DNA of 64,000 bases from an uncultured virus (IMG/VR IMGVR_UViG_3300042898_002828) (IMGVR_UViG_3300042898_002828); one strand, 5' to 3'. Shown: positions 8,572 to 60,710, counted from the first letter of the stretch. Made by a program: numbers and translations. Notes: generated by a model from the sequence alone, not told the origin.

Positions 8572-8825
8572 AATACTCCAACCACTTCGCGTAACTGTAT
8601 TATAGTAACGCTTAGTTTGTTTATTGTCATTGTAAAGCTATTGGTTCTGTCGTATAAAATAACATCACCCGACTTTACGGTTTCAACCTCATCACCAACT
8701 GCTATAACTTTTCCTTTGTAGTATCTTGATTTAGTTGAGTCATCTGCCGATAAAAGCATACCTGAAGATGTTTCTTCGTTCTCAATAATAGTTTCTAATG
8801 TTATATATTTAGCTATCGGCTTCAT
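8568..8825 (-). CDS. groES: co-chaperonin GroES
   Basis: MKPIAKYI...ETSSGMLL...GKVIAVG..VKSGDVILY; adjacent to groEL. Confidence 0.85.
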   Translation of the reverse strand: MKPIAKYITLETIIENEETSSGMLLSADDSTKSRYYKGKVIAVGDEVETVKSGDVILYDRTNSFTMTINKLSVTIIQLREVVGVF

Positions 8826-11182: not shown

Positions 11183-14100
11183 TTATAATCCCTTTACTTC
11201 TTGAACTTCTTTTAATTCTTTTAGTTCTTTTATTGGACGATTAGATAAAGGCTTTGTTTTTTTATCATATACGTTTACTCCACCACCAAAAAAAGCATAA
11301 AAAGCTAATAGTCCGTCTAGCGCTGTGGGGTCATCTTGCAATAAATCTTTAACGGTATCCCAATAGATTGGATAAGAATTTTTCTTTAACTCTTCGGTAA
11401 TACTATATGGATTTCCCCATTGATCCACGGTCACTCCATTTTTCTCATGTGTAGTTAGAAATTTTTGAATCATAGATGCCGATGGTGCAAGTTTATTGGT
11501 TGCCTGTTCTCCTATTAATCCCAGTCTAGTAGGTGCTCTATAGGGCGTTCCAAGTTTAACCACTTCACCACTGCCTTTCAATATTGAGCCAGCTATCATT
11601 CTTGCAAGAAATACTATTTGCTGTATTCTTCCGCCCCAAGGGTCAACTCGCGTATTGCCTATTTTAATTTTACCAAAATCAGAACTTGTAGGGTCGGTTT
11701 CAACTCCTGTTTCATCATCATCGTCATCATTGTAATACATTGCCGCAGCAATAACTAATCCCATTGTTAATCCTATAAATTTAGAATAATCTAACAGTGC
11801 TATTTTATTTGCTATTGAAACACCTGGAGTGCCTGATTTATTTCTCCATTTATATAGTTGTCTTGGGAATAAAATAGTTTGTTTTAATGCACTTGCCCAG
11901 TTTCTAGGAGAAAAGAATACCTTAGTTAATGTTGGTGCTATCTGCTCTAATGGACCAATAGATGCTCTACCTGTAAAAGTATTAACAACATCTGCCAAAT
12001 CTTTAAATGCTTGCGGGTCGTTCTCAAATCTAATACCCCTTTCGTGTAGCATTTCCCTTCCGTCTAAAAACTTTAATACTCTCATTGTATCAAGGTACCC
12101 AACTGCCGCTCTTTCAAATGCCTTGAATGGGCTTTTGCGTTTCCAATTATCATAGGCAGATTTACTTTTAAGTTTTAATGCTGAACCTAAAATATTCCAA
12201 ACAAAGTTTGCTGCATCCGACAAAAATAACTCTTCTCTTGCAGTAGCCTCTCCTCGTGGTTCCGAAATAGAGAGTTTGCTTTGTCTCATCTCTGGATACC
12301 ACTCTTGAGACTTAATCATATTTAACCAATTTTCTGTCCTAGATTCACTACCAAAAAACTTCATAGCAGTCATAAATGATTTTAATGCGTATGTAGGATT
12401 AGATATTGATAGCACTAAACCTTGTATTCCCACAAATGAAAATTCACCGGTTGCTCTTAATAACCTTGTTAATCCCCATGCGTTCCATAAGGCGTCTATT
12501 GTTTTTTCAGCTTTGGTTCTATTGTTTAGTTTAGCTTTATAGATTTCTTTGTCGTATTCTTCGCGTAACCTTAACTTCTCGGCTTGCAAATTCAATAACT
12601 CAGAATCTTTTATTAATGGAGATTTCTCTTTTTTAGTAAAATCTTTTTCTTTTAATCTTCTCCTTAAATCGTTGATAGCACGCTGGCTTGCTTTTTTGGT
12701 TGCGTCTAATCTTTTTGCTTGTAAAAACGACTCATCCTTAAATATCTCATCGTGCTTGATTTTAAGTTTATCTCTTTTTTCTTTTAGATTAGTTAATTCA
12801 GCATCTTCAGCCATAGACCTTTTACTTAATGGAACTCTCATTCCTTTGTCTATTTCTCTTTGCAAGTCCTCTATCTGATTGGTGATTCTTTGCTTTGTGG
12901 CATCAAGAGCTGTTTTTTGTTGTTTAGCCTCTAATTCTGCATCTATAGGAAGTTCTTTCATTAACTCCCTTAATTCTTTATTTAATGCTCTTTCTTGAGC
13001 ATCTAACTTATCTCGCTGTAATCCGCTTCTAAGTGGTCGTTTCTTGTTATTTACATCTTCAAGTGCTGAAACAATTCTACCAATACGTTTTATTTTTCTA
13101 ATTGATGCGAGTATTTCATCTTTACTTAAATTTTTTATTTTTCCGTATTGTGTTATAGCATCTCGGATTTCCCTATCTGTAATATCAGGATACTCTTCTT
13201 TTATTACATCTTTAACTCCTTCAACTACTTCTTCTATAGTAGTAGCACCTTCTTCTACTAATCTCCTTATAAGCCCATTTGGTATCTTAATTGCTATTCC
13301 TGGTATTGTTTCCTTATTAACCCAAAACTCTGAAAATTGCTTTTCTGCTTCTTTTTTATCTGAATCAGACAAAGACTTGTACCAATCACTTTTTACAATA
13401 TGCTCTAATCCTTTAGCTATAGCCTCGGCACTTCTACCTGTTACTTTAATTGTACCCGCAACTATCTTAACAGCGCCATCCCAAACCAATGATGCAGGTG
13501 TGGCTGACAAGAACATACCGGGTCGATTCAACTGAGCTTCCTTTACTCTTGATACTATCCAATCTGTTTCTGTTCTTATCTTACTTGATACAGTAACCTT
13601 TTGTTTAGGTGTTCGTGCTGCGGCTTCTTGAATATTTTTTATTGCTAATTCACCTTCGGCTTTAATAGCACGTTCTTCTGCTTCTGCAAGTTTTTGCTTT
13701 ACTTCTTTATATTGAGCATCAAGTTCTCTGAATTTCTCTTCTACCTCTTCGGATATTTGACCATTATTTGCGTCTCTATATTCTTGAATTTTATTTTCTA
13801 CATTGTATCCAATATCTGAGTTTTGATATATGTCTGCCAATGCCGATGAAAAACGACCTCCACTTAATGCTTTCCTGCTAAATTCATTAAATAATCCAGC
13901 TTGCTCTTTTTCTAATTCAGCTAACTTAGTAGAGTCTTTTTCTTTAGATATTTTTCTATCTAATCTTTCAAGTATTTCGTTCCAAACGTATGCACCTGCG
14001 GCATCTGAAACGTCATTATTTCTAACGGCCTCTAATGCTGTTTCTACACCTACGGTATTTACAAATTCAATTGCTCTTTCTTTGGCTTCTTGTTGGTTTT

Positions 14101-17100
14101 CTACATCTCTTGTTAGGCCTAGTTTTTCAAGTTCACGTTTTACCCCTGCCCTAACATTTCCTTCATATACTCTTGAAGTTGCTATTGTTTTTTTGACCTC
14201 TTCTGTAGTTTCATCTACAACAGTAGTGGCTTTTTTGTATATTTTGTCAAACTGAGTAACTGCTAACTTTTCATTCAAATCAACACCAGGCAATTCGTCT
14301 TTAAACCTTTCAATAAATTCTTTTGCAGTAATAATACCATCGGCAATGTATGATTTAATCAATTCTACGAACTCAGGTAAGGCTTGGAATCCTCCTGATG
14401 ACATATTCTTTGACTTTTCAATAAATGCTTTCTTGGCAGCCTCTATTCGTTGTTTAGATTGTTCTTTTGGTGTTAATCCTTTAAATAATGGTATTCCACT
14501 TTCAACTGACTCTTTTAATTCGGGTGTTATGTCTATGGAGTATTGGGTGGATTCAGAATATTCGCCAACATTACTTCCTGTATCTTCAGTAGCATCTCTA
14601 AATTCTCGCAGTGCATCTTCTTTAGATTTCGTGTCAAAACTCATTTGGAATCCGCTTGGCGTTTCAATAATCCAATCGCCTTTTTTTAAGTAATCCCTAC
14701 CCATCATTCCAGAAACATCTTGCGTTCCGTCATATTGGTATGCTTTAAGTTTTTCGTTTTTACCTTTATTTATTTCAATAGTCTTCGGACTTTGCCCCGT
14801 TAATGACCTTGCAACTTCGCCAACGATTCCGAGTTTACCTTCTGTTGGTGAACCGTAAAAACCTTTCATTCCTTTGCCGCCGACTTTAAGACCTTCTCCT
14901 TCTAATCTTAAATCACCCTTTTTATCTGCTTTTACTTTTTCTGCTATATCCTTGCCAAACATATTTTCTATGTCTTTTAAAGATGTAGTACCATTATCGT
15001 CAAAAGCAATTCTTTTTGAATTTAAGTCTAATGCTTCATACTTATATCTATCTTCTCCTACTTTTATAAAATCAACTCTCTTTACACTCTTACTCAAGTC
15101 ATACCTGTCGTTCTGTTGTTCTCCTGTTGTCCATGCAATCTTATCAGCCCCTTGTTTAATCGCTTCTTTAAGTGCTACTTTTAAACCTAATTTAGTCCAA
15201 GCGTTTGTGTCCATTACAAATGGGGCAGATGGTATTGCGGATATTGTTTTTTTATCTGCACCTTCAAATATTTTGGACTCTAAAATAGCGTTGGTAGCTT
15301 CCTTTCGTGTCCTATACTCTCCAATTTTTGTTTCAACACCTTGTTCAGTTAATTGTACTGCCTCATATTTGTTTTTACCTATGTTTGTAACCCTACCTAA
15401 TGCTCTTGATATATTTGAGTTAGGTTCACTTGCTGATATTGATACACTATCCCAAAAATCTTCTTCTTCAATTTTTAAGTTCGGCAAATCTTTTACTTTA
15501 ACCTCTTTTGGTTTTTCATTTGTAGCAAACCCTTCTTTCTTACCTGTCTGTCCCCAATCGCTTTGTACTTCTTCAAGGAATAATACCTTATTACCCTGTG
15601 CATCTGTGCGGGTATTCATTCTTAAATGAACAAGGATATTTGGTTCGTCAAAGTGTGAAGAGCTAAAAGAACCTATTGTGTTTGCCTTTGTTGACATTCC
15701 TATCGTATCAATTGGCTTTATAAATTTGCTTCTTTTTTCAATATATTCTTTAGCTGCTTTTTTTGATTTTGTTATTTCTACAATATCATCAAAGGCAATT
15801 TTTTTCAATATGTCGTCATTTCTTTCATCTACGTATTGAATGTACACATAGTCCAAATCGTCTTCGGCAGTAATATCATTAAACCTTTTGTTGTTTGCGT
15901 AAAATTCATTCAACTCACGAATGCTATTTACATAATCCGCAAGTGTTTTTTTATCTTTTTCATTTATTGTTTTTTCTCTTTCGGTAACAGGCAACGTAAC
16001 AAATACCTCTTTGTAGTTTTCTTTTTGTCCTTCAAGTTGGTATTGAACAAACTTAGTGTCACCTGTTCCTAAATAATCTCTATCTCCATTTTCATTAGCC
16101 CAAGTAATCATCTCGGACCGTGACATATCAGATATTTCTTCGGGGTCTGCACCCATCTCATTTATTAAATGATTCTCAAGTCTAACATCTGTCCACCCTC
16201 TAAATGCACCTTCCGAAGCATCTATTTTTGTAACCTCGACTATTTCAATACGATTGGTTTTAAAATAATCAAGTAAATTATTCTTAGTGATAATATTATC
16301 GGAATTTTCGGTTAAATAATCAGCAACTCCCGTCCACTTAAGTTCATCGCTTTCGGTTTCGCCTTGAAGTCTTTTTAGCCAATCTCTTCCTGTGGCTTTG
16401 TCAAGTTTAGATTTAACGATACCGTCTTCTAATGGTGAATAAAATCCGTTAATTAATTCGGCAGTCGGCTTAGAATTATCTACTTCAACTTCTACTTCTT
16501 TACCATTAAGGGTAACTTTGTATTTGTCGTTTAGGTGTTTAGCAAATAATCCTTTGTTCCAATTTTTACCTACCTTAGAATCCACCCATTGAATTGCTTT
16601 GTTAATAGCATTACCAAGTTTAGATCCTTTTTCTACTTCTCTTGCTGCTATTTCTAATGCACCGTTGTAAATAGTTTTAGTAATACCAAAATCTAAATGT
16701 ACGCCTAATCCGCTAAGTTTCTTAGACCTTATTTTTGCGGCTAACTCTTTTATTTTCTGCTCTGAGAGTTCTTTTTGCTTACTTATTGGTAATTCTTTTA
16801 CTAAATTATCCTCTATGAACCCTACTACGGATTTAGCATCTGCAACACTATTAAATTCGCCGACTATTTTGCCATCAGCGTATAATAAGTATGTTTTGTA
16901 TTTTTTGCCATCTTTGTTTTTTCTAATAAGTCCATCTACTATTCTTACGTCAATACCATTTATATTTTTTGAAGCGTAAGGTTGGCTATAATTAAACACA
17001 TTTTGCCTAATATCTTGTGCCTCGCGAAATACGCCATTATCATCTAGGTATCCTTGTCCAAATATTATTTTACCCTTTGGAGCACGTTTGCTTATTATTT

Positions 17101-20100
17101 CTTTTTTAAGGTCTTTGGCTTCTTGTTCGTTTAATAACTTGCCTTCAACGCCTTGTTTTTTTATAGTAACATTAGTATCTTTAATAATAGCGGCTAAATT
17201 GCTTGAAATCTCGCTTTCAGTAACTTTATTTTGTTGCTTTTCTGAATCAAGCGGCTCAACTCTTTCTCTTGCCTTGCCGATTCCTTCAACAAGTAATTTG
17301 TTTCTGATCTTGTCAATTGTTCCGAACCTGAGAAGGTCGTTTGCTTGCGAGCTTGTAAGTTTTTCTGATGATTCTGCAATTCCATATTCTTTTAAAAAAG
17401 TGTTTATATTAGATTTTCCAAATTTAGCATTAATTTTTTTTACTTCCAAGTCTGTAATACCTATTTTACCTCCACCCCTTCCAACTGCAATAGCCGTAGA
17501 CCCAACAACAATACCTCCATTGTCTTCAATATAGTTTTTTAAATTATTTAAAGTGCTTCCGCTTGTGGCAACATCATCTACAAGGAAATATTTTAAACCT
17601 TTTTGTATTTTACCCAAAAACTCTGGCGGCGAAGTCATTCTTGCTAGCTTTGACTTACCGGTATGCTTTGGCTTGTTTGATTGATAAATATCTAAATCTA
17701 TTTTATTCCCAAATATTTCTGACATTATTTTTGCCATTGCTAACGGTATTGCATTTACTCCATCTTGCTCAATAGCCCTTACTGGTACTATTATAGCTGT
17801 AGGATTTTCTTTAAGAGGAAATAGCTTTTCTGGCTTTATTAAATCTACTGATAATAAATATGCTAATTTAACATTACCTGACTTAGCTTTTTTATAGTGA
17901 GGATGCCCTTTTAGTGTTTGAATATTAGTATGTAATAAAACTTTATTTATTGCATTCGCATCTATTATTTCTACATTTGGCTCACTAACAGAGTTAGTGC
18001 CATACTCTGTTTGAGTTTCTTCGAGCATACCTTCCTCTCCGAGCGACCTATAATATCCTACAACATCCGAACCGTTACTATCAGTTATGATATGGTCAAG
18101 AACATTTACGGACATCTTTTTTAGAAAATCTGACACTTCCCTTGCTTCAGATTCTCTTTGTTGGTTTCCGTAAAATATTACAGATGTGCCTATGCCTGAT
18201 TTGCCTATAAAATCTACACATTCTTGATATGTAATTTTATCTTTAAATACATAATTACCAATAATATCATTGTTCTGGCTTAATAATAACATAGCATTTT
18301 TAGGCATTGCAGTAAATCGCAATTGCTGTATAAATTCTGCTGCTGTTTTAGATGATGTTACTTTTGTTTGCGGAATGCTAATAACTTTTTGTTCGTTAAA
18401 AACATGAACAGTTAAATTGGAGTTATCCTCTAAATCCTTATTTCTATCTTCAACGGTAAAATCCGCATCTTTGTCTAATAGTACATATTTATTAGAATAT
18501 GTATCCATTATAACGTGCTCTAAGTCTATATCTAATTTCCCTAAAGCAGACTGTAGGGTTTGTGTTATAGATATATCGGGTTTAGATGGCACCAATGCCC
18601 CCGATGGGTGATTATGGACTAAATATACCTTTTTTGACTTAAATTTAGCTAATCCAGCAAGGACTAATTTAGAGTCAATAACAGTTCCTGTAGTTCCACC
18701 AACACTTAAATATTGTATATGGGAATTTCCTTTTGCATCAACGTGAACTGCAAATCCATGTTCAACATTTTTATTTTCAAGCAATCGCATAATATGGGCA
18801 ACATCTTCTGCGTTTCTTACTTTTGTTGTGCCTGTAAATTGAAGGTCTTTGGTTTTATTCCAAACGCCAATTATTGAACGACTATAACCTTGTGAGTTAT
18901 CTTCTTCCCGTTGTAAGTCTCCTTTTGTTGGGTAGTTGTCATTACCCGATTCTGATAAGAAGGGTAAGTCTTTGTTGGGTGTAAGGATGTAGTTGCTTTC
19001 ATTTTCTTTAATATTTTCTATTTCTTGTTGTCCAGTCTTTTCTTCTTGGCCAATTGGAGTGCTATCTCCATTTTTAGTAACTGCTCCTTTGAGTAAATTT
19101 TCTGTGTTTTCATTTTTATTTGATTCTAATTGTTGTACTTCATTGTCATTTGCTATTGCATCCCAATCTGTAATACCGTTTACGGTATATTTTTCAATAT
19201 TTTTATCAAGTTCGGCTAATTCCGTTTCGCTTAATTCGTCTACTATTGCACGTTCCTGTTCCCCTATTTGCTCAATAATCCATTCTCTGTTTGGAAAATT
19301 TTCGTTTCCTACAACTTCTAATAATTCGTTGTATGACCAGTTTATAGGGTCATCTAAATCTTTTGCCTCACCTACTAAATGTGTTTTTATTTCATCGTAA
19401 ACGCTCTGTTTGCCTCCTTGAAGTATTTCGGAAACCATAGTATTGAAATCGCCTTGGTCGAAATCTTCAAGCTGCAATTCATCCATTATGTTTTCGTACA
19501 GTTGGCTATACGTTCTACCATTTTTAGATATAAAGCCAAATAAATCTTCTGCGGCGTACCCTGTTTGACTTAATGCCCCATCTTGTTGTTTTGTGCCGTA
19601 CAAAACTTTACCACCCGTTGCAAAATACCTTAGTATCAATGTTCGAGGTGTTAATACATCTAAGTTACTGTATTTTTTAATAGTATTCGCTAAAACTCCA
19701 ATACCTTTTTTCTTTATTTCAGAGTGTTTTTTAGTAGTTACTGCACCTTGCTTAGTCTTTATTTCATACTCAAAGGAATTACCAACTTTACTTACGCTTA
19801 TTACAGTTCCTTGGCCTCTTTTACCATTTACATCTTTCCATATTACATCTTCTCCTTTATTTGCCCTTGGATTAGTTACAGGCTTTTCTTTAACCTTCTC
19901 TGCGGCAGTTTCTACTACCGCAGATTTAGGTTTTCCTTTTAACACATCGGCTTTCTTGGCTTTGGCTTTGGCTTTGGTTTCGGCTTCATTTTGTTTATTA
20001 ATTAGTGTGTTTAACTTTTTTTGTAAATCAAAAATAGCAGTATCTGCAATTTTCTGTAAAATTTGGCTTTTACCTTCTTTACCTTTTTTGATAGTTTCTA

Positions 20101-23100
20101 TCTTGTCTTGTAAAGAAGATATTTTAATTTGTAACTCAGTTGGTTTTACTTCCTCTTTAGTTTTACTTTCAGGGACGTTGACATCTTCCCCTCCTTTTTC
20201 TCGTTGGCCTTGTACTTTGCCGGGGACATTTTCATTTCCTTGCGTTCCTCTTTTTTGGATTCCATTTTCATTTTCTGTTTCATTATTTTGTTTTTTAATT
20301 GGTTTTGGATATATAATTTTAGATTCATCTAATACCACTATTTCATCTCCGTATGTCCTACTACCTTTGTCAACAATAGCATCATAGCCTAATTTTTTTG
20401 CAGCATCTGATATATGTTTTGATGGTATTTCATCTATTTCTGATAAATTTTCAGGGTCATACCTAAAATATGTATCATCTTCACCTAGCGTTAAATTATT
20501 CTTTTTACCGTATTCTTCATCAGCTAACCTTATAGCTTCCGATTCGACTTCGTTCCAATTTTTAGTATTTGTATATACTGGATTAGATAAATTTAATTCT
20601 AATTCCATTACATTATCACCAAACTCTCCTTCTACTGTTTTTTTATCCGAAGCTAAGTATATTCCTGTTCCAAATTGAGGAGCATTAGAAACTTTTAATT
20701 TACCTTCTATTTTAGATGGTGTTGCGTGGTAGAATTTAGTTTTGTTATCAATACTAAAAGGTTTTACTTCTTCTTTGGGTGTTTCTTTGAGGGATTGTTC
20801 TGTTGCTTTTGTAATGCCTGGCCCAGCAATATCATATTCGCCCAATACGGTATGTACAACTTCCTTATAACGCTCTTCTCCATTAAAATACCTTTCTGCT
20901 ATTGTAGAATAAAATTCTTCAATATTATTTTCAACATTAGCATAATTAATGCTAGATAATTTTTCTGTTAACGCTTTTACTTTATCTTCTTTTGTTTTTA
21001 GATTGTTAGTTAAATCTTCAACTATTACTTTACCGTTGTCTATTGTTTTAACTGCTTTCACATCTCCCCCTACACCAACACTACCTGCTATTTCTTTGGT
21101 TTTACCTTGTTCGGAAGTTTCTTGGGTGTCTCCTTCTCCCATTTCTTGCAATCCCATTTCGGGCTGTTGATTGCGTAACACGCTTTCCTCTGTTGTTTGC
21201 TCTTGAATGGCATCTTTTTTATTTTTAAATTGTTTAGATATTTCGGTTGCTAAATCAGCATCCTTATTTGTAATTACTTGTCCTTCTTTATTTCTTAAAG
21301 TAACCGATACTACATCTCCGTTGTCGTTTTTATTAGTAGAGAGTATATTGAATAATTCATCATCAATTTTGACGTTATTTCCTTTTACTTCAATTTTTGG
21401 GAGGGCAATAGCGTTTGCCATTTCATCTCCCTGGAGTTCTATTATTTTATTAGGTGTTTCAAATGTAAGTTTTCCGCCTTCGTCCTTTACTATTACGCCT
21501 TCTTCTCCTTGAAAAGAAACCTTTTTATCAATTAAATCTGCTACTGGAGTTTGGTCCTTAACTTCATTGGTTATTTTATCAAGACTTACTTTTAATTCAT
21601 TTATAGCAAACTTGTCTGCTTCGGTTTGGTTTACTTTTCCGTCTGTTTTGTTTTTTAGGTCTCTTAGTTTTTTAGCAATAGGTAATGCCCTTTTTATTTG
21701 TTCGGGTGTCATACCTTCTGTGTTAATGCTATTTAAAACACCTACTGATTCACGTGTATCATTTAACTGTTCTTCTGCTTCTATCGGGGTTAATTCACCT
21801 AAATTAACTTTGTTTTGCAAGTCCGTTTCAATCGCAGTTATTACATTTGCATCGTTACCCAAGTTTTTTAACACTTCGATTTGACCGTCTGTAACTTCAC
21901 TATAATTGTTAGTTTTCTTTGCTTTACTAAATGCTGATGGTGTACTTAAAATAAATCCACCAATTGCTTCTTGTAATCCTGCTTTTAATACTTGTTTTGC
22001 TCCTTCACCGAATGTATTAGGCGCTTGGAACATATCTTTACCTTTGGCGGCATTATAAATATCTTTAGTGGTTATATCAAGTAATTCTTGACTTGCACCC
22101 GTTTCAAACTCTGCTAATCCACCCGCACCTATTTTAATCGCACCTTTGGCTATTCTACTTTCAATATCTTGTTCGATAAATTCTTTAAACGTTTTAGTGG
22201 TCGTGCTTTTAGTTGATTTTCCTATTGCACTTGCCACTAAATCATTCAATAGCCCTTTTGTTCCTATCGCATTTCTAAAACCATAAGTTTCTAAAACCGC
22301 ACCTCCTACCATCATAGGAACTTTTAAAAATAACTTTTCGTTCTCGGATATGTTCTTAAAGTTAGGGTCTGAATCCATTTGAACATCTAAGTCATCAGAT
22401 ATTTGTGCTGCCATTATTAAAGGCATAGCTTCTGCCGCTAACATCGCTGGTAACGACTTAACTAATCCACCTACTGCACCTTCTATAAATCCTACGTTTG
22501 CCGCATATTCTTTAGTTGTGCTTTCTGATTTGGCGAAGTCTAACGATTCTCTTAATATCGGTTGAATCCATTTCTTAGCCGCCTTCTTTTCAGAATCGGT
22601 CATATTACTCGGAGCAAAGGCATCAATCATTAATCCTGCCGTTCCCGATGCTGCACTTGTCAATCCGTCCATTAATTGATTCCAAAGGTATTCAGACGTT
22701 TCCCCTTGTGAAGATTTCATAGTAACGTATTTACCTACTGAACTTGATAGGTCTTTTTTACTGCCTTCAATTAATGTTTGTTTCTTTTGTAGTTCGGCTA
22801 ACTTAGTATTGTATTCTTGTGTACCTTTTGGTGTTTTATAAAGGTCTTGAACGGATTTAGTAAACTCGTTTTGGTCTTGCTGTATCTTTAAAAATGATGC
22901 TTCAATTTCCTTTTGGTCTACAAATGTTTTATTGTAGTTTTCTTGATTTGTAATAGACTTCGCAAGTTTATCGTATTGACCTCCATTATCTTTTAAGAAC
23001 TTTTGTAAATCCCTATCGGCTGACCTACCAAGACTTATAGTTGTTCTTTTGCCATTAGGTGCAGTTACACTTACTGCATCCCCTAATCCTGTTTCCTCAA

Positions 23101-23698
23101 ACTTAAATCCAAAGTCTTTAAATTGGTAGTTTAATTGTGGTACGGTAAATTCCTCTTCTTTTCTTACTAAGTCGGGAGTAATAGTAGTTATACGTTTATT
23201 AAACTCTTCATTACTTAAAGTAAATTTAGATTCAACTTTTACTGCGGGTTTATTTGCTCTTGATTTAGGTGCAAGAACTTCCTCTGAATAAATATCGGGT
23301 TCGTAATAAACATATTCCTCTTTAGGTTTTATTTCAGGCTTTTTAACAATAGGTTTATTAGCCTTTGACGTAGGGGCATATTTTACTTCATTCCCACTAA
23401 ATGCTTCGGGAGCATAAGTAAATTGTTCGCCTGTTGGTGTTCCTAAAGATTTGTTGTCATTATTAGCATCTGCCTTAGACTTTGGTTGCACCAAAGAACC
23501 ATCCTTTGAAGGTAATTCCGTAACTTGTTCTTTTTTTTTTATTTCAGGTGCAGCCTCAGATATTACCATATCTTTATACACGGGGAACTTCTCAATCATT
23601 TTATTGGCAAGTTCCGTATCGGACATATCCTTGTATTGAGGATATTTGGTTTTTATCTTTTGCCCAAGTTGTTCTAATGTTAATTTTTCTTCTGGCAT
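11183..23698 (-). CDS. giant polyvalent internal virion (ejection) protein
   Basis: 4171 aa. ART-like ~20310-20740, JAB/RadC VHNHPSG ~18610, PRTase LVDDVATSGST ~17570, coiled coils. Follows the tail/ejection genes. Confidence 0.75.
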   Translation of the reverse strand: MPEEKLTLEQLGQKIKTKYPQYKDMSDTELANKMIEKFPVYKDMVISEAAPEIKKKEQVTELPSKDGSLVQPKSKADANNDNKSLGTPTGEQFTYAPEAFSGNEVKYAPTSKANKPIVKKPEIKPKEEYVYYEPDIYSEEVLAPKSRANKPAVKVESKFTLSNEEFNKRITTITPDLVRKEEEFTVPQLNYQFKDFGFKFEETGLGDAVSVTAPNGKRTTISLGRSADRDLQKFLKDNGGQYDKLAKSITNQENYNKTFVDQKEIEASFLKIQQDQNEFTKSVQDLYKTPKGTQEYNTKLAELQKKQTLIEGSKKDLSSSVGKYVTMKSSQGETSEYLWNQLMDGLTSAASGTAGLMIDAFAPSNMTDSEKKAAKKWIQPILRESLDFAKSESTTKEYAANVGFIEGAVGGLVKSLPAMLAAEAMPLIMAAQISDDLDVQMDSDPNFKNISENEKLFLKVPMMVGGAVLETYGFRNAIGTKGLLNDLVASAIGKSTKSTTTKTFKEFIEQDIESRIAKGAIKIGAGGLAEFETGASQELLDITTKDIYNAAKGKDMFQAPNTFGEGAKQVLKAGLQEAIGGFILSTPSAFSKAKKTNNYSEVTDGQIEVLKNLGNDANVITAIETDLQNKVNLGELTPIEAEEQLNDTRESVGVLNSINTEGMTPEQIKRALPIAKKLRDLKNKTDGKVNQTEADKFAINELKVSLDKITNEVKDQTPVADLIDKKVSFQGEEGVIVKDEGGKLTFETPNKIIELQGDEMANAIALPKIEVKGNNVKIDDELFNILSTNKNDNGDVVSVTLRNKEGQVITNKDADLATEISKQFKNKKDAIQEQTTEESVLRNQQPEMGLQEMGEGDTQETSEQGKTKEIAGSVGVGGDVKAVKTIDNGKVIVEDLTNNLKTKEDKVKALTEKLSSINYANVENNIEEFYSTIAERYFNGEERYKEVVHTVLGEYDIAGPGITKATEQSLKETPKEEVKPFSIDNKTKFYHATPSKIEGKLKVSNAPQFGTGIYLASDKKTVEGEFGDNVMELELNLSNPVYTNTKNWNEVESEAIRLADEEYGKKNNLTLGEDDTYFRYDPENLSEIDEIPSKHISDAAKKLGYDAIVDKGSRTYGDEIVVLDESKIIYPKPIKKQNNETENENGIQKRGTQGNENVPGKVQGQREKGGEDVNVPESKTKEEVKPTELQIKISSLQDKIETIKKGKEGKSQILQKIADTAIFDLQKKLNTLINKQNEAETKAKAKAKKADVLKGKPKSAVVETAAEKVKEKPVTNPRANKGEDVIWKDVNGKRGQGTVISVSKVGNSFEYEIKTKQGAVTTKKHSEIKKKGIGVLANTIKKYSNLDVLTPRTLILRYFATGGKVLYGTKQQDGALSQTGYAAEDLFGFISKNGRTYSQLYENIMDELQLEDFDQGDFNTMVSEILQGGKQSVYDEIKTHLVGEAKDLDDPINWSYNELLEVVGNENFPNREWIIEQIGEQERAIVDELSETELAELDKNIEKYTVNGITDWDAIANDNEVQQLESNKNENTENLLKGAVTKNGDSTPIGQEEKTGQQEIENIKENESNYILTPNKDLPFLSESGNDNYPTKGDLQREEDNSQGYSRSIIGVWNKTKDLQFTGTTKVRNAEDVAHIMRLLENKNVEHGFAVHVDAKGNSHIQYLSVGGTTGTVIDSKLVLAGLAKFKSKKVYLVHNHPSGALVPSKPDISITQTLQSALGKLDIDLEHVIMDTYSNKYVLLDKDADFTVEDRNKDLEDNSNLTVHVFNEQKVISIPQTKVTSSKTAAEFIQQLRFTAMPKNAMLLLSQNNDIIGNYVFKDKITYQECVDFIGKSGIGTSVIFYGNQQRESEAREVSDFLKKMSVNVLDHIITDSNGSDVVGYYRSLGEEGMLEETQTEYGTNSVSEPNVEIIDANAINKVLLHTNIQTLKGHPHYKKAKSGNVKLAYLLSVDLIKPEKLFPLKENPTAIIVPVRAIEQDGVNAIPLAMAKIMSEIFGNKIDLDIYQSNKPKHTGKSKLARMTSPPEFLGKIQKGLKYFLVDDVATSGSTLNNLKNYIEDNGGIVVGSTAIAVGRGGGKIGITDLEVKKINAKFGKSNINTFLKEYGIAESSEKLTSSQANDLLRFGTIDKIRNKLLVEGIGKARERVEPLDSEKQQNKVTESEISSNLAAIIKDTNVTIKKQGVEGKLLNEQEAKDLKKEIISKRAPKGKIIFGQGYLDDNGVFREAQDIRQNVFNYSQPYASKNINGIDVRIVDGLIRKNKDGKKYKTYLLYADGKIVGEFNSVADAKSVVGFIEDNLVKELPISKQKELSEQKIKELAAKIRSKKLSGLGVHLDFGITKTIYNGALEIAAREVEKGSKLGNAINKAIQWVDSKVGKNWNKGLFAKHLNDKYKVTLNGKEVEVEVDNSKPTAELINGFYSPLEDGIVKSKLDKATGRDWLKRLQGETESDELKWTGVADYLTENSDNIITKNNLLDYFKTNRIEIVEVTKIDASEGAFRGWTDVRLENHLINEMGADPEEISDMSRSEMITWANENGDRDYLGTGDTKFVQYQLEGQKENYKEVFVTLPVTEREKTINEKDKKTLADYVNSIRELNEFYANNKRFNDITAEDDLDYVYIQYVDERNDDILKKIAFDDIVEITKSKKAAKEYIEKRSKFIKPIDTIGMSTKANTIGSFSSSHFDEPNILVHLRMNTRTDAQGNKVLFLEEVQSDWGQTGKKEGFATNEKPKEVKVKDLPNLKIEEEDFWDSVSISASEPNSNISRALGRVTNIGKNKYEAVQLTEQGVETKIGEYRTRKEATNAILESKIFEGADKKTISAIPSAPFVMDTNAWTKLGLKVALKEAIKQGADKIAWTTGEQQNDRYDLSKSVKRVDFIKVGEDRYKYEALDLNSKRIAFDDNGTTSLKDIENMFGKDIAEKVKADKKGDLRLEGEGLKVGGKGMKGFYGSPTEGKLGIVGEVARSLTGQSPKTIEINKGKNEKLKAYQYDGTQDVSGMMGRDYLKKGDWIIETPSGFQMSFDTKSKEDALREFRDATEDTGSNVGEYSESTQYSIDITPELKESVESGIPLFKGLTPKEQSKQRIEAAKKAFIEKSKNMSSGGFQALPEFVELIKSYIADGIITAKEFIERFKDELPGVDLNEKLAVTQFDKIYKKATTVVDETTEEVKKTIATSRVYEGNVRAGVKRELEKLGLTRDVENQQEAKERAIEFVNTVGVETALEAVRNNDVSDAAGAYVWNEILERLDRKISKEKDSTKLAELEKEQAGLFNEFSRKALSGGRFSSALADIYQNSDIGYNVENKIQEYRDANNGQISEEVEEKFRELDAQYKEVKQKLAEAEERAIKAEGELAIKNIQEAAARTPKQKVTVSSKIRTETDWIVSRVKEAQLNRPGMFLSATPASLVWDGAVKIVAGTIKVTGRSAEAIAKGLEHIVKSDWYKSLSDSDKKEAEKQFSEFWVNKETIPGIAIKIPNGLIRRLVEEGATTIEEVVEGVKDVIKEEYPDITDREIRDAITQYGKIKNLSKDEILASIRKIKRIGRIVSALEDVNNKKRPLRSGLQRDKLDAQERALNKELRELMKELPIDAELEAKQQKTALDATKQRITNQIEDLQREIDKGMRVPLSKRSMAEDAELTNLKEKRDKLKIKHDEIFKDESFLQAKRLDATKKASQRAINDLRRRLKEKDFTKKEKSPLIKDSELLNLQAEKLRLREEYDKEIYKAKLNNRTKAEKTIDALWNAWGLTRLLRATGEFSFVGIQGLVLSISNPTYALKSFMTAMKFFGSESRTENWLNMIKSQEWYPEMRQSKLSISEPRGEATAREELFLSDAANFVWNILGSALKLKSKSAYDNWKRKSPFKAFERAAVGYLDTMRVLKFLDGREMLHERGIRFENDPQAFKDLADVVNTFTGRASIGPLEQIAPTLTKVFFSPRNWASALKQTILFPRQLYKWRNKSGTPGVSIANKIALLDYSKFIGLTMGLVIAAAMYYNDDDDDETGVETDPTSSDFGKIKIGNTRVDPWGGRIQQIVFLARMIAGSILKGSGEVVKLGTPYRAPTRLGLIGEQATNKLAPSASMIQKFLTTHEKNGVTVDQWGNPYSITEELKKNSYPIYWDTVKDLLQDDPTALDGLLAFYAFFGGGVNVYDKKTKPLSNRPIKELKELKEVQEVKGL

Positions 23699-57136: not shown

Positions 57137-57568
57137 ATGACAGACGCAGAACAACTTAAAGAAGATAGGATGATTTTTGAATTAAAATGCCTCCTAGATA
57201 TTAAAGATTTTAAAATATTTCAAGACGAAGCAGAAAAAATATGGATTTTAGATAAGTTGAAAAAACATAATTTTAATGTCACTAAAACTGCTATTGAAAT
57301 TCGCATCCAGCGGAGCCATCTTTACAATAAAATCATCAAATACAAAATTCCAATAGATAGGAAACTAAAATACAGCTATTCAAATGGTAAATACATGGTA
57401 ATTTTCAATCCTAATGGGGATAGGTTTAATTTTATTATCAAAAATGAACCCGAACTAACGGAAACTATAAAAAGTGGCTTACAATTCGTTTATATACGAA
57501 AATCAAATTTAGCTTACATGGCCAAAAAAATATTCACCCGGATAGAAAATTTAACAAACGTCAATTAA
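57137..57568 (+). CDS. Fis/NtrC-type HTH protein
   Basis: EAEKIWILDKLKKHNFNVTKTAIEIRIQRSHLYNKIIKY. Confidence 0.75.
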   Translation: MTDAEQLKEDRMIFELKCLLDIKDFKIFQDEAEKIWILDKLKKHNFNVTKTAIEIRIQRSHLYNKIIKYKIPIDRKLKYSYSNGKYMVIFNPNGDRFNFIIKNEPELTETIKSGLQFVYIRKSNLAYMAKKIFTRIENLTNVN

Positions 57569-57583
57569 TTAATAAATGCATCT

Positions 57584-57644
57584 ATTTAGAATGATTTTAA
57601 ATAACTAAACCACTTGATTATTAAAATCAGAACAACGTATTTTG
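57584..57644 (+). promoter_or_regulatory. palindromic operator plus variant promoter
   Basis: ATTTAGAATGATTTTAAAT; TTG at 57614; TATTTTG ending 57644. Confidence 0.55.
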
Positions 57645-57660
57645 AACCAACAATTAAATT

Positions 57661-57930
57661 ATGAAAAAGACATTAGAACTAACATTATGCGAAAGTGAAG
57701 GAGTAAAGATTGAAGTATCTTGCGATGTGCTACGAATTGAAACTGACAATCCTGCTACACATCCCGATGACCCGAATCAAGCAACCATTACAGAGTATTG
57801 GTGTAAGACCATTAATAAATTAAAGATAAACGGTTTTGAGTTGGGAATTTACAACCATAAAACCTTAAAAGAAATTGAACGATTAGTGGAGGACCAGTTA
57901 GGATCTAACCCTGATTTATTTGAAGGATAG
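57661..57930 (+). CDS. hypothetical protein
   Basis: ORF downstream of promoter. Confidence 0.6.
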   Translation: MKKTLELTLCESEGVKIEVSCDVLRIETDNPATHPDDPNQATITEYWCKTINKLKINGFELGIYNHKTLKEIERLVEDQLGSNPDLFEG

Positions 57931-57940
57931 TATATAGCGT

Positions 57941-58525
57941 ACAATAATATGAGAAGTTGGGGGCTGTCGTGAGCAGTTGACAAAATGAGTCCTACCCCAC
58001 GGAGAAGATGCCGAAAATGACGGTTAAACATCGATTCCCCAATTTCTTATATTTATTGTTATAAAATCGTTTTAATGTTTTATAACGGCTGACGCTATAC
58101 GAAGGCAGGGGTTAAGATGCACTCCCTTTCAGCCTACCACAAATGATAAATAGATGCACACCGCTTGTATTAGCAGTAAAGCCCCTGCTTTTGTATAGCG
58201 TATGTTATAGGGCGTTTTAATTTAATTACAATGGAAAAGACTTACAGATTAGAATTTAATGAAAAACAACAAAACTTTCATTTAGACAACTTCACTCACG
58301 AAGAAGGAACGCACGGATGGTTTACGATTTTTGAGCATTGCACAGATATTGAGTTTAAAGTTTACGAGGCTTTTGTTAATCGTATCCCAAATAAAAAACT
58401 TACAAAAGAATACTTGCTAAAATGTGCAGTAGAAGTAAAATTATTTACTAATAATTTGTTGGAATACGGATTGGTTGTCGGTCGTTCTTAAATGCCCTAT
58501 AACTAATCGTTCAGTGTTATAAAAC
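57941..58525 (+). mobile_element. integron-like cassette array remnant (attC-like hairpins and core sites)
   Basis: Two long imperfect hairpins; GTTATAGGGC (58204) / GCCCTATAAC (58494) flank a gene; GTTTTATAAC (58077) / GTTATAAAAC (58516). Confidence 0.65.
58231..58491 (+). CDS. cassette-borne hypothetical protein
   Basis: Promoterless ORF bounded by core and inverse-core sites. Confidence 0.7.
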   Translation: MEKTYRLEFNEKQQNFHLDNFTHEEGTHGWFTIFEHCTDIEFKVYEAFVNRIPNKKLTKEYLLKCAVEVKLFTNNLLEYGLVVGRS

Positions 58526-58547
58526 TAAATATTAAACTTTTAAAAAT

Positions 58548-58682
58548 ATGCAAGTTACAATTAATTACAATTTGAAATGGCAGCTAAAAACAGCCCCGAA
58601 TTATCAGTTTACAGACAATGGAATCTGCATCAATACATTAAGAGGCAAGATAGTTAAAAAAGTAATATTGCAGCGTTACTAA
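58548..58682 (+). CDS. 44-aa ORF, possibly truncated
   Basis: MQVTINYNLKWQLKTAPNYQFTDNGICINTLRGKIVKKVILQRY*. Confidence 0.4.
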   Translation: MQVTINYNLKWQLKTAPNYQFTDNGICINTLRGKIVKKVILQRY

Positions 58683-58753
58683 CTTACACACCAATAACAC
58701 CGATACTTGGGTTAGATGATTACAATAGCACCCAAAAATTAGTAAATGCACCT

Positions 58754-58814
58754 ATTTAGAACGTTTCTAAATTACTTAAACCAACAAATAATTAAAACAA
58801 TATCTCTTAATTTG
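58754..58814 (+). promoter_or_regulatory. perfect palindromic operator plus variant promoter
   Basis: ATTTAGAA-CGT-TTCTAAAT; TAATTTG ending 58814. Confidence 0.6.
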
Positions 58815-58961
58815 AATAATGAAATTTAAAGCACTTAGGAAGTTCAGTAGGCAAGAGGTTGTGGGATACCTAAGTAAAATTAACAAAGTAAGAATTTATA
58901 CCATTGATGGGGTTGATTATACAATAACTGAATTTAAAAAACATTTTAATAATTTTGAAAT

Positions 58962-59893: not shown

Positions 59894-60489
59894 GAGATTC
59901 CTGTATTTTTTACCGTAGTTTTTATGAATCAATTAACGAACTACCAGACATAAACAAATTAGAAATTTACAACGCTATTTTTAGCTATTCTTTGAACTTT
60001 ATTGAGCTTGAATTAACAGGTTTAAGTAAATCTATTTTTACATTAATAAAACCACAACTTGATGCTAATATCAAGCGTTTTAATAACGGTAATATACCAA
60101 AAGATAAGCAAACAAAAAGCAAAACAGAAGCAAAACAGAAGCAAAAAGAAAGCAAACGTGAAGCTAATAACAATGTAAATAACAATAACAATGTAAATGA
60201 TAATAAGAATAAAGAAGAAAAGATAAATTTTGATATTTTTTATAATTTATATGATAAAAAAGTAGATGGCAAGGATGCTAAATTAAAATGGGATAGATTA
60301 GATTTACAAACTCAACAACTAATATTATCGGTAGTTCCTAAATACATAAAATCCACCCCTGATAAGCAATTTAGAAAATCGCCTTTGGTTTACTTAAATA
60401 AAAAGGCATGGGAGGATGAAATTATTATAGAAAAAGAGTTTAACAAACCAGTACAAACATACAAAGAACCAATATCAAAATTATTATGA
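59890..60489 (+). CDS. replication initiator (DUF6291-like N-terminus)
   Basis: DSCIFYRSFYESI start, internal repeats, FDIFYNLYDKK...KSPLVYLNKKAWEDE; upstream of DnaB. Confidence 0.75.
   Translation: MRDSCIFYRSFYESINELPDINKLEIYNAIFSYSLNFIELELTGLSKSIFTLIKPQLDANIKRFNNGNIPKDKQTKSKTEAKQKQKESKREANNNVNNNNNVNDNKNKEEKINFDIFYNLYDKKVDGKDAKLKWDRLDLQTQQLILSVVPKYIKSTPDKQFRKSPLVYLNKKAWEDEIIIEKEFNKPVQTYKEPISKLL
60106..60210 (+). repeat. putative origin: 11-bp iterons plus AT-rich repeats
   Basis: AAGCAAA at 60106, 60117, 60128, 60139, 60150 and AAGCTAA at 60161; AACAATGTAAAT twice. Confidence 0.7.
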
Positions 60490-60710
60490 GAAAAATAAGA
60501 TTAGAATACTCAAGAGAGCAAGGATGTTTTCACTTTGAAAATGTTAATAAGGACAATAAAAATACATTTAGTTATTTTACAATTAAAAATGAGGTTGATA
60601 GTGATATAGCTTCTGAATTTGTAAAAATGTATGATAGTAAATATCCTAAAAGAAATATATCAATCCAGGCAATGAAAGATGAATTTAATAACTTTATCAA
60701 TGGAAGGTAA
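60486..60710 (+). CDS. hypothetical protein, apparent paralog of 58231-58491
   Basis: IRLEYSREQGCFHFEN versus YRLEFNEKQQNFHLDN. Confidence 0.6.
   Translation: MRKIRLEYSREQGCFHFENVNKDNKNTFSYFTIKNEVDSDIASEFVKMYDSKYPKRNISIQAMKDEFNNFINGR

What the first reader, a model, noticed from the sequence alone, without database searches (positions are those of the whole stretch)
57941..58525. Integron-like gene cassette with mutually complementary core sites inside a phage early region
Seen: a promoterless ORF (58231-58491) is preceded by GTTATAGGGC (58204) and followed 2 nt after its stop by the exact reverse complement GCCCTATAAC (58494). The upstream element opens with GTTTTATAAC (58077) and forms a 20-bp stem (ACGCTATACGAAGGCAGGGG / CCCCTGCTTTTGTATAGCGT, two G-T pairs). 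The exact complement of that opener, GTTATAAAAC, sits beyond the gene at 58516. Recombination at G|TT between 58204 and 58516 would restore perfectly paired cores on both the genome and the excised circle. A second ~120-nt hairpin (57941-58059) and a 29-nt empty unit (58058-58086) lie just upstream. Known: this core/inverse-core logic (AAC...GTT) is the hallmark of integron attC cassettes. Inference: the phage acquires early genes via an attC-like ssDNA-hairpin system. No integrase is visible in the window, so it may be borrowed from the host or encoded elsewhere.
Basis: partly seen in the sequence, partly recalled or inferred. Interest (0 to 1): 0.85.

Follow-up and report, generated by a model that had tools for sequence, protein, structure and literature searches.

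The report
Integron-like gene cassette in phage
A small gene in the early region of this lake-water crAss-like phage sits in a swappable unit bounded by a folding DNA hairpin site, one copy of a large integron-like gene-shuffling system shared by Bacteroidota bacteria and their phages.

Summary
The pattern is not chance: 2 GTT-started exact 10-nt inverted pairs against 0.03 expected.

The second hairpin (58077-58213) belongs to a very large family. Its anatomy is AAC, 5 nt, an about 20-bp stem with two fixed G.T pairs, an about 72-nt loop, the stem, 1-2 nt, GTT. I found it in more than 122 bacterial genomes, mostly Bacteroidota, and more than 126 viral contigs. The first hairpin is a decayed copy of a sister subfamily.

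In bacterial and phage arrays, the bases after each GTT pair with the bases before the next AAC, across the cargo. This is the integron cassette footprint. Relatives swap modules at these triplets. Xer/IntI-like tyrosine recombinase genes sit at the same end of arrays in 12 of 12 cases.

The mobile unit here is hairpin 2 plus the 86-codon gene (58086-58502).

Clusters of attC sites without an integrase (CALINs) in lytic phages are already in print (Qi et al. 2023, PMC9892861). This scan has also met the same system on other DNA.

The window encodes no recombinase, and activity is not shown. I rate it a new variant of a known kind, of moderate interest.

The parts
57933..58059 (+). Hairpin 1: decayed site of the sister subfamily (core GAAGTTGGGG ... 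CCCCAATTTC). Arms 57941-57962 and 58037-58059, loop about 74 nt. The left foot reads TATAGC where relatives have CTAAC.
   Evidence: Folds. The core pattern occurs in 20 viral contigs, spanning 91-94 nt, most with an AAC foot, a 2-5 nt spacer and GTT. L349, L361 and L364 carry the same hairpin with an intact TAAC foot. Model R1 does not hit it.
58058..58086 (+). Cargo-less unit: GTTATAAAA, TCGTTTTAAT, GTTTTATAAC. The arms pair and only 10 nt lie between them.
   Evidence: The same unit recurs with covarying arms and a constant middle in L070 (GTTATAGCA / TGCTATAAC) and in L357 and L367 (GTTATGTAA / TTACATAAC).
58077..58213 (+). Hairpin 2: intact attC-like site. Layout: foot GTTTTATAAC 58077-58086; spacer GGCTG 58087-58091; stem 58092-58111; loop 58112-58181; stem 58182-58201; spacer AT 58202-58203; foot GTTATAGGGC 58204-58213.
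   Evidence: Model R1 gives 95.4 bits, E 5e-20. The DNA fold shows a 6-bp foot helix, a 5/2-nt internal loop and a 21-bp stem.
58086..58502 (+). Inferred mobile cassette: hairpin 2 plus ORF86 plus the right arm. It would be cut between AA and C on the + strand at both ends, which is G|TT on the complement.
   Evidence: L002 holds 58074-58504 at 97.2% identity with unrelated DNA on both sides. Linkage of hairpin to GTT-side cargo is shown. The exact cut position inside the triplet is inferred.
58231..58491 (+). ORF86, the cargo gene, function unknown.
   Evidence: 85 homologues were found, with no Pfam domain and named only as hypothetical. No Pfam or PHROG hit. Homologues lie in 17 viral loci in varied contexts.
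58490..58503 (+). Right arm AAATGCCCTATAAC. It pairs with 58204-58217 (13 Watson-Crick pairs plus 1 G.T).
   Evidence: (I8). The same arm pair frames different cargo in L239 and L213.
58504..58535 (+). Conserved backbone border: TAATCGTTCAGT, GTTATAAAAC, TAAATATTAAAC. This is the right edge of the variable hotspot.
   Evidence: Present after the last AAC in all relatives of the hotspot, with 5 sequence variants. GTT occurs at the 58516 position only in the window type.

Best explanation
The stretch 57933-58503 is a short integron-type cassette array without its own recombinase (a CALIN), lodged in a variable hotspot of the early region of a lytic crAss-like phage. It has three parts:
- a decayed site (hairpin 1);
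- a cargo-less unit;
- one complete cassette, made of hairpin 2 as its recombination site plus an 86-codon gene.

Proposed mechanism. When the + strand is single-stranded, the AAC and GTT feet and the long stem fold into a hairpin. The fold is strand-specific because three conserved G.T pairs become A.C mismatches on the other strand. A Xer/IntI-like tyrosine recombinase cuts at the conserved triplet and exchanges strands with a second site. That recombinase would come from the Bacteroidota host or a co-infecting phage. As a result, hairpin plus downstream cargo moves as one unit.

Shown here: the anatomy; membership of a very large family; stem covariation; the 'own-cassette' pairing of ends; module boundaries at the triplets; linkage of each hairpin to its GTT-side cargo; and recombinase genes at a fixed end of arrays elsewhere.

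Inferred: folding in vivo; the exact cut within the triplet; which enzyme acts; and whether anything still moves in this phage.
For: 1. Family. Of what was fetched, 51 bacterial and 75 viral distinct copies have the AAC and GTT feet and a 90-97 nt core. Model R1 scores the window copy at 95.4 bits.
2. Covariation. 8 of 18 stem pairs have compensatory changes in 60 sequences. The other pairs were fixed by my search pattern.
3. Arrays. R1 hits in five bacterial genomes number 35, 5, 2, 18 and 10, clustered with up to 10 copies in 11.5 kb. The cargo is typical accessory genes: Arr-ms, glyoxalase, PIN, SnoaL, Abi_alpha.
4. Own-cassette rule. I scored the 11 bases after each GTT against the 11 bases before the next AAC.
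   - Phage arrays: 8.9 of 11 Watson-Crick (n=18), against 4.3 across the hairpin (n=20) and 4.6 for non-adjacent pairs (n=164). There were 15 G.T and 0 A.C.
   - Bacterial arrays: 7.4 (n=24) against 3.9 (n=27) and 3.9 (n=194).
   - In the relatives and window, 18 of 94 GC-containing long inverted repeats start exactly with GTT. The next trinucleotide has 4.
5. Boundaries. L057 and L071 share 1053 nt at 99.8%, from TAAC-GGAATTGG to CATATAAC-GGTT, and are then unrelated. One hairpin alone is shared at 98.4% between L055 and L057. L002 and the window are as described under parts.
6. Linkage. In five phage hairpin clusters the bases before AAC are all different (9, 8, 6, 4 and 3 variants). The bases after GTT are identical in each cluster (1 variant each).
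7. Recombinase. A 353-aa tyrosine recombinase directly adjoins an array of at least 9 sites in a Flavobacterium genome. Homologues lie within the flanks of 8 of 80 bacterial loci and 3 of 186 viral loci. In all 12 cases they lie 3' of the array on the G.T strand.
8. Strand. In bacteria the genes lie antisense to the folding strand, with both neighbours antisense in 21 of 33. This argues against an mRNA-only role.
9. Literature. Qi et al. 2023 (PMC9892861; abstract and section 3.4 read) report CALINs with methyltransferase cargo in lytic phages, including Polaribacter phage P12002L. They showed that IntI1 recombines one of its sites.
Against: - No recombinase is encoded in the 64-kb window.
- PF00589 is absent from 4 of 5 relatives' records, three of them complete. 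One complete 34-kb relative has ERF, NinG and GIY-YIG instead. Ordinary recombination could therefore do the shuffling.
- The recombinases next to arrays score below the integron-integrase cut-off (TIGR02249 203.7 against 265). The IntI-specific region (model positions 178-237) is not aligned.
- The stems show no extrahelical bases.
- In phages the genes lie on the folding strand (37 of 48). Some ORFs start inside the hairpin loop. An RNA role is therefore possible.
- Some breakpoints also fall at the GTT side.
- Hairpin 1 has a broken foot.
- No precise empty site or circle junction was found.
- The link to the P12002L sites rests on weak foot-only model hits (E 0.01-0.03).
Confidence: 0.7

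Rival explanations
1. The hairpins and the end-pairing stems act in RNA, for example in mRNA stabilisation, processing or control of translation starts. Modules would then shuffle by ordinary homologous or microhomology recombination (Erf, NinG, homing endonucleases) at these conserved regulatory motifs. This is how PeSL cassettes shuffle in T4-like phages.
For: - In phages the folding strand is the sense strand, with both neighbours sense in 37 of 48.
- The conserved mismatches are G.U-compatible: 15 G.T and 0 A.C.
- ORFs start in hairpin loops and run through the 3' arm in L055, L079 and L071.
- Methyltransferase cassettes have a second inner repeat that pairs the leader, up to the ATG, with the 3' flank. 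It is 19 of 19 in L070.
- A complete relative encodes ERF, NinG and GIY-YIG and no integrase. An HNH gene replaces the cassette in L019.
- The PeSL precedent comes from PMC2839356 and PMC4122927 (abstracts read).
Against: - The same element family lies antisense to genes in bacteria (21 of 33).
- Tyrosine recombinase genes sit at a fixed end of arrays (12 of 12).
- The shared identity at junctions is only 4-9 nt, yet the switches are abrupt after 99.8% identity.
- The one-sided linkage of hairpin to GTT-side cargo is what a single crossover point predicts.
Confidence: 0.15
2. The cassette is 58205-58516, with a 23-nt mini-site (GCCCTATAAC, 12 nt, G). It inserted by G|TT exchange into a once perfect site, GTTTTATAAC ... 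hairpin 2 ... GTTATAAAAC.
For: Both 10-nt pairs are exact. The predicted products would each have perfectly paired feet.
Against: - The GTT at 58516 is found in 1 of 5 right-border variants.
- TAATC... is backbone shared by relatives with other last cassettes.
- Hairpin 2 travels with ORF86 or with the GTTATAGGGC arm in at least 6 different upstream contexts, and in L002.
Confidence: 0.08
3. The repeats are chance matches in AT-rich DNA, or plain terminators.
For: Exact 10-nt inverted pairs are common here: 4 against 1.98 expected. One terminator-like site lies inside hairpin 2.
Against: GTT-started pairs occurred in 0 of 1000 resamples. Family membership has E 5e-20. Covariation is shown. No T-run follows the hairpins.
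Confidence: 0.02

Closest known systems
Integrons: attC-bounded gene cassettes, and CALINs (attC clusters lacking an integrase), including those in lytic phages (Qi et al. 2023, PMC9892861)
   Same: - Folded imperfect-palindrome sites with conserved AAC and GTT triplets.
- An unpaired spacer between the foot helix and the main stem.
- Site length of 137 nt.
- Cassette ends that pair with each other rather than across the site.
- Arrays of small accessory genes.
- A tyrosine recombinase at one end of some arrays.
- DNA methyltransferases as phage cargo.
- Strand bias of the fold.
   Different: - There are no extrahelical bases. Three conserved G.T pairs make the fold strand-specific instead.
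- The foot helices are 10-16 bp rather than 7.
- The spacer is 5 nt on one side and 1-2 nt on the other.
- The adjacent recombinases score as Xer/XerA-like, below the integron-integrase threshold, with the IntI-specific region not aligned.
- In phages the genes lie on the folding strand and may begin inside the hairpin loop. This is the reverse of the bacterial arrangement.
- I could not run IntegronFinder or HattCI.
PeSL regulatory cassettes of T4-like phages (Arbiol et al. 2010, PMC2839356; Comeau et al. 2014, PMC4122927; abstracts read)
   Same: Repeated stem-loop motifs between small non-essential early genes in hyperplastic regions. Indels and replacements between close relatives occur at the motifs.
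   Different: PeSLs are promoter plus terminator units that recombine by homology. They have no conserved AAC/GTT triplets, no cargo-specific paired ends, no bacterial counterpart arrays and no associated tyrosine recombinase.
pdif/Xer modules of Acinetobacter plasmids (PMC7399989; abstract seen in the search listing only)
   Same: Genes flanked by short sites for Xer-type tyrosine recombinases, behaving as movable modules.
   Different: Those sites are double-stranded Xer binding sites of fixed sequence. They are not folded hairpins with cassette-specific paired ends.

Membership tests
Integron attC site | Conserved outer boxes ending ...AAC and starting GTT..., able to pair | tested here: met
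   In the window these are 58081-58086 and 58204-58209. T, G, T of the TGTT foot are invariant and the remaining AAC/GTT columns at least 90% conserved in the 60-sequence alignment. The DNA fold pairs them.
Integron attC site | Inner imperfect inverted repeat forming a hairpin, with an unpaired spacer between the outer and inner helices | tested here: met
   The stem is 20-21 bp after a 5-nt / 2-nt internal loop. 8 of 18 pairs are compensatory.
Integron attC site | Extrahelical bases in the inner helix that set strand choice (feature recalled, not from a call) | tested here: not met
   The stem 58092-58111 / 58182-58201 is continuous, with 18 Watson-Crick and 2 G.T pairs and no bulge. The family has fixed G.T pairs instead.
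Integron attC site | Start of a cassette is complementary to the outer box at its own end, not to the box across the adjacent site | tested here: met
   In the window it is 13 Watson-Crick plus 1 G.T of 14. Phage arrays give 8.9 against 4.3 of 11. Bacterial arrays give 7.4 against 3.9.
Integron attC site | Detected by the attC covariance model (IntegronFinder / HattCI) | not testable with these tools
   No attC model is available here and Rfam has none. Qi et al. detected sites in Polaribacter phage P12002L with those tools. My model finds only weak foot-level matches there.
Integron attC site | Recombined by an integron integrase | not testable with these tools
   This needs an experiment. 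IntI1 recombined P12002L_attC2 in Qi et al. 2023 (section 3.4 read).
Complete integron | IntI-type integrase with its specific extra domain next to the array | tested here: not met
   There is none in the window. The array-adjacent recombinases elsewhere score TIGR02249 203.7 and 147.5 against a cut-off of 265. Model positions 178-237 are unaligned, and the best solved relatives are XerA.
CALIN (attC cluster without integrase) | Two or more sites close together with no integrase nearby | tested here: inconclusive
   The window has one intact site (hairpin 2) and one decayed sister site (hairpin 1) 17 nt apart, with no integrase in 64 kb. Whether both would pass the attC model is untested.
PeSL | Strong sigma-70-like early promoter plus terminator stem-loop | tested here: not met
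   The sigma-70 scan found 6 sites against 6.8 expected. Only one terminator-like site was found, and it lies inside hairpin 2. Bacteroidota-type promoters are not covered by the scan.

The most novel reading that the evidence does not exclude
Bacteroidota phages maintain their own pool of 'inverted' integron cassettes. In these the gene lies on the folding strand and is often fused to the hairpin loop. Strand choice is set by fixed G.T pairs instead of extrahelical bases. The cassettes are moved by Xer-like recombinases that lack the IntI domain, and some of these are phage-encoded (L239, L270, L213). That would be a parallel integron lineage, and a main engine of early-gene turnover in lytic phages. 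It would be far commoner than the 17 CALINs in 10,705 phage genomes reported so far.
Probability: 0.35. Interest if true: 0.8.

Novelty: new variant of a known kind. Interest (0 to 1): 0.55.

Why it matters
This would explain how lytic phages of Bacteroidota swap small early genes, such as anti-restriction methyltransferases and unknown host-takeover genes. The exchange would occur at exact points, without homology, between unrelated phages and possibly with their hosts.

It would also widen the integron concept in three ways: to sites without extrahelical bases, to Xer-like enzymes, and to genes read on the folding strand.

For this window alone the gain is modest. It holds one intact cassette and one decayed site. 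The general idea is already in print for a few phages, and this scan has seen it on other DNA.

Tried and rejected
- Rfam: 0 matches over the whole window at gathering scores. Only 3 chance-level hits (E 3-6.5) at 57600-58900.
- tRNA and tmRNA: none.
- BLAST of 57600-58900 and of a typical family copy against 50,697 phage records: no match.
- No whole genome is held for the window.
- AACTAATC and CGTTTTAAT are not enriched window-wide: 8 against 4.2, and 4 against 1.5. The system occupies one hotspot here, not the whole early region.
- My first inverted-repeat scans at low stringency were swamped by AT-rich noise: 345 against about 185 in shuffles. I replaced them with the GC-filtered scan.
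- The right-border 17-mer scan gave 53 loci, mostly chance. Only those with the TAATC context were kept.
- Predicted empty-site junction probe: 7 metagenome contigs matched, but none is related to the window.
- Predicted circle or tandem junction probe: 0 viral contigs.
- Sequencing runs: 18 lake-water DNA runs hold at least half of the sampled words. All runs laid were contigs, so they show neither circles nor RNA ends.
- Integron-integrase model TIGR02249 in five bacterial genomes: no hit over the cut-off.
- In 4 of those 5 genomes the best recombinase is not beside an array.
- Complex prediction, structure prediction and the protein atlas were not used. The cargo protein has no bearing on the claim.
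- Considered and dropped:
  - Invertible segments. The repeats differ from cassette to cassette, so one invertase could not serve them.
  - Transposons with terminal repeats. There are no target duplications: T precedes GTT, and G or T follows AAC.
  - Y-RNA or riboswitch-like RNA. There is no Rfam support.

Full report
**What is there.**

The window is an AT-rich phage contig of about 33% GC. It has a crAss-type muzzle protein domain and a 4171-aa ORF. No whole genome is held for it. Lake-water metagenome runs hold the stretch.

The layout between the stop of an 89-codon gene (57930) and a conserved border (from 58504) is:
- hairpin 1 (arms 57941-57962 and 58037-58059);
- a 29-nt unit whose arms pair (58058-58086);
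- hairpin 2 (58077-58213, 20-bp stem with two G.T pairs);
- an 86-codon ORF (58231-58491);
- the exact complement of the post-hairpin foot (58494-58503).

The + strand folds much better than shuffles and better than the - strand, both as RNA and as DNA. Two GTT-started exact 10-nt inverted pairs are seen where 0.03 are expected, and 0 of 1000 resamples reach 2. Rfam and the tRNA scan find nothing.

**The site is a mosaic hotspot.**

Proteins flanking the site recovered 28 related viral loci. Between the same left gene and the same right border (AAC followed by TAATC...), relatives carry quite different content. It includes N6 and C5 DNA methyltransferases, small Cys-rich ORFs, a three-gene block, and an HNH endonuclease.
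- L019 is identical to the window up to 58082 and then diverges.
- L002 holds 58074-58504 at 97% identity, with unrelated DNA on both sides.

In an all-against-all comparison, identity switches on and off at (T)AAC followed by a G-started 5-nt spacer, or at T-GTT. For example, L057 and L071 share 1053 nt at 99.8%, bounded by these motifs.

Contigs from four lake runs break or diverge at 58042-58091, 58114, 58147, 58223, 58519, 58554 and 58654. All four carry a variant that leaves the window right after G58077.

**The hairpins belong to a very large family.**

The core of hairpin 2 was used as a gapped pattern. From the fetched loci, 51 bacterial and 75 viral distinct copies share the full anatomy:
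- (T)AAC;
- a 5-nt spacer;
- a variable 9-bp outer stem;
- a fixed core with two G.T pairs;
- an about 72-nt loop;
- the return stem;
- 1-2 nt;
- GTT.

The bacteria are mostly Bacteroidota, including Chitinophagaceae, Flavobacterium, Chryseobacterium, Pedobacter, Saprospiraceae and Cyclobacteriaceae.

In a 60-sequence alignment, 8 of 18 stem pairs show compensatory changes. The rest were fixed by my pattern. A covariance model built from the alignment scores the window copy at 95.4 bits.

Hairpin 1 is not hit by that model. It has the core of a sister subfamily present in 20 viral contigs with the same anatomy. In the window its left foot reads AGC instead of AAC, so it looks decayed.

**Array logic.**

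Five bacterial genomes hold 35, 5, 2, 18 and 10 model hits. These are clustered between small co-oriented genes of the kind found in chromosomal integrons: Arr-ms, glyoxalase, PIN, SnoaL-like, Abi_alpha, RibD_C.

The bases after each GTT pair with the bases before the next AAC, across the cargo. They do not pair with the bases across the hairpin.

| Arrays | Own cassette | Across hairpin | Non-adjacent |
|---|---|---|---|
| Bacterial | 7.4 of 11 (n=24) | 3.9 (n=27) | 3.9 (n=194) |
| Phage (two arrays) | 8.9 of 11 (n=18) | 4.3 (n=20) | 4.6 (n=164) |

In the phage arrays there is a conserved single G.T pair, with 15 G.T and 0 A.C in total. In the relatives and window, 18 of 94 long GC-containing inverted repeats begin exactly with GTT; the next best trinucleotide has 4. 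The window pair 58204/58503 follows the rule, with 13 Watson-Crick pairs plus 1 G.T of 14.

**Which unit moves.**

In five phage hairpin clusters the bases before AAC all differ (9, 8, 6, 4 and 3 variants), while the bases after GTT are the same. The hairpin therefore travels with the GTT-side cargo. The effective crossover is at AA|C on the folding strand, which is G|TT on its complement.

This gives a cassette of 58086-58502 in the window, matching the L002 block. If that cassette closed into a circle, its two feet would form a perfect 10-bp helix around hairpin 2.

The GTT at 58516 occurs in 1 of 5 border variants, and TAATC... is shared backbone. The same hairpin 2 and the same arm pair frame different cargo in L239 and L213, and in one lake variant. 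This is what cassettes made in one 'factory' would look like.

**Recombinase.**

No integrase was found among the window's 39 ORFs of at least 100 aa that I scanned. PF00589 is absent from 4 of 5 relatives' records. A complete 34-kb relative has ERF, NinG and GIY-YIG instead.

Elsewhere, a 353-aa tyrosine recombinase directly adjoins an array of at least 9 sites in a Flavobacterium genome. Homologues lie within the fetched flanks of 8 of 80 bacterial loci, plus 2 fragments, and of 3 of 186 viral loci. In all 12 cases the gene is 3' of the array on the folding strand.

These proteins score as XerA / 'integron integrase' (220.9 against a cut-off of 220 for one, 175.9 for the phage one). They fall below the integron-integrase model (203.7 and 147.5 against 265), and the IntI-specific region is unaligned.

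**RNA or DNA.**

In phages the genes lie on the folding strand (37 of 48). Some ORFs start in the loop and read through the 3' arm and the GTT foot, so an RNA role cannot be excluded.

In bacteria the same elements lie antisense to the genes (21 of 33). This fits a DNA-level, strand-specific fold and matches the classical arrangement, in which the recombining strand is not the coding one. That last point is recalled knowledge, supported by the bottom-strand results in Qi et al., section 3.4.

**What is known.**

Reviews list integrons in Bacteroidota (PMC8618304 and PMC9668308, passages read). Qi et al. 2023 (PMC9892861; abstract and section 3.4 read, supplements not opened) found 17 CALINs in 10,705 phage genomes. 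One is in Polaribacter phage P12002L, with methyltransferase cargo, and IntI1 recombined one of its sites. My model gives only weak, foot-level matches between that phage's methyltransferase genes.

My searches found no paper describing the G.T-pair site family, its abundance in phages, or the reversed gene orientation.

Earlier notes of this scan describe the same system on other DNA. I reached the anatomy independently before that look-up, and I took from it the lead to Qi et al.

**Verdict.**

The integron-like reading is right in substance and wrong in its choice of crossover sites. The locus is a small, partly decayed, recombinase-less member of a widespread integron-like system. Activity here is not shown.

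Noticed in passing
window 60486-60710 (+): A 74-aa ORF just upstream of the DnaB helicase gene is a distant paralogue of the cassette gene ORF86 (27% identity over 55 aa, E 7e-05). It is not flanked by the hairpin motifs.
   Followed up: partly
window 11183-23698 (-): A giant 4171-aa ORF. Its only Pfam hit is a RadC-like JAB domain at residues 1628-1733.
   Followed up: no
window 8822-10393 (-): A phage-encoded Cpn60/TCP-1 family chaperonin homologue (E 1e-48).
   Followed up: no
window 57567-57626 and 58737-58797: An approximately 60-nt direct repeat (80% identity) brackets the 89-codon gene and the hotspot. In relatives the homologue of 58654-58772 lies upstream of that gene. Two lake runs have contigs joining 58753 back to 57607. 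This points to a local rearrangement or alternative gene order.
   Followed up: partly
L055, L065, L057/L071/L070 (3' flanks of methyltransferase and three-gene cassettes): A conserved GTGCGGTGG motif lies right after the stop codons. A second, inner inverted repeat pairs the A-rich leader, up to the ATG, with a T-rich 3' flank (19 of 19 in L070). A CCACAAATG-like motif recurs in hairpin loops and cassette flanks.
   Followed up: no
L070 4758-5603: A 17-nt hairpin stem (16 Watson-Crick pairs plus 1 G.T) encloses about 810 nt that hold ORFs. Cargo can therefore also sit inside the hairpin loop.
   Followed up: no
L019 3460-3710: An HNH endonuclease gene occupies the place of hairpin 2 plus ORF86 in a contig otherwise identical to the window up to 58082.
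   Followed up: no
window about 58042 (lake run X17): In one contig the 3' arm of hairpin 1 is preceded by what looks like the 3' end of a tRNA gene (a T-arm-like GGTTCGACTCC). Some relative therefore has a tRNA next to this site.
   Followed up: no
bacterial versus viral loci: Gene orientation relative to the folding strand is opposite in bacteria (antisense, 21 of 33) and phages (sense, 37 of 48). I have no tested explanation for this.
   Followed up: partly
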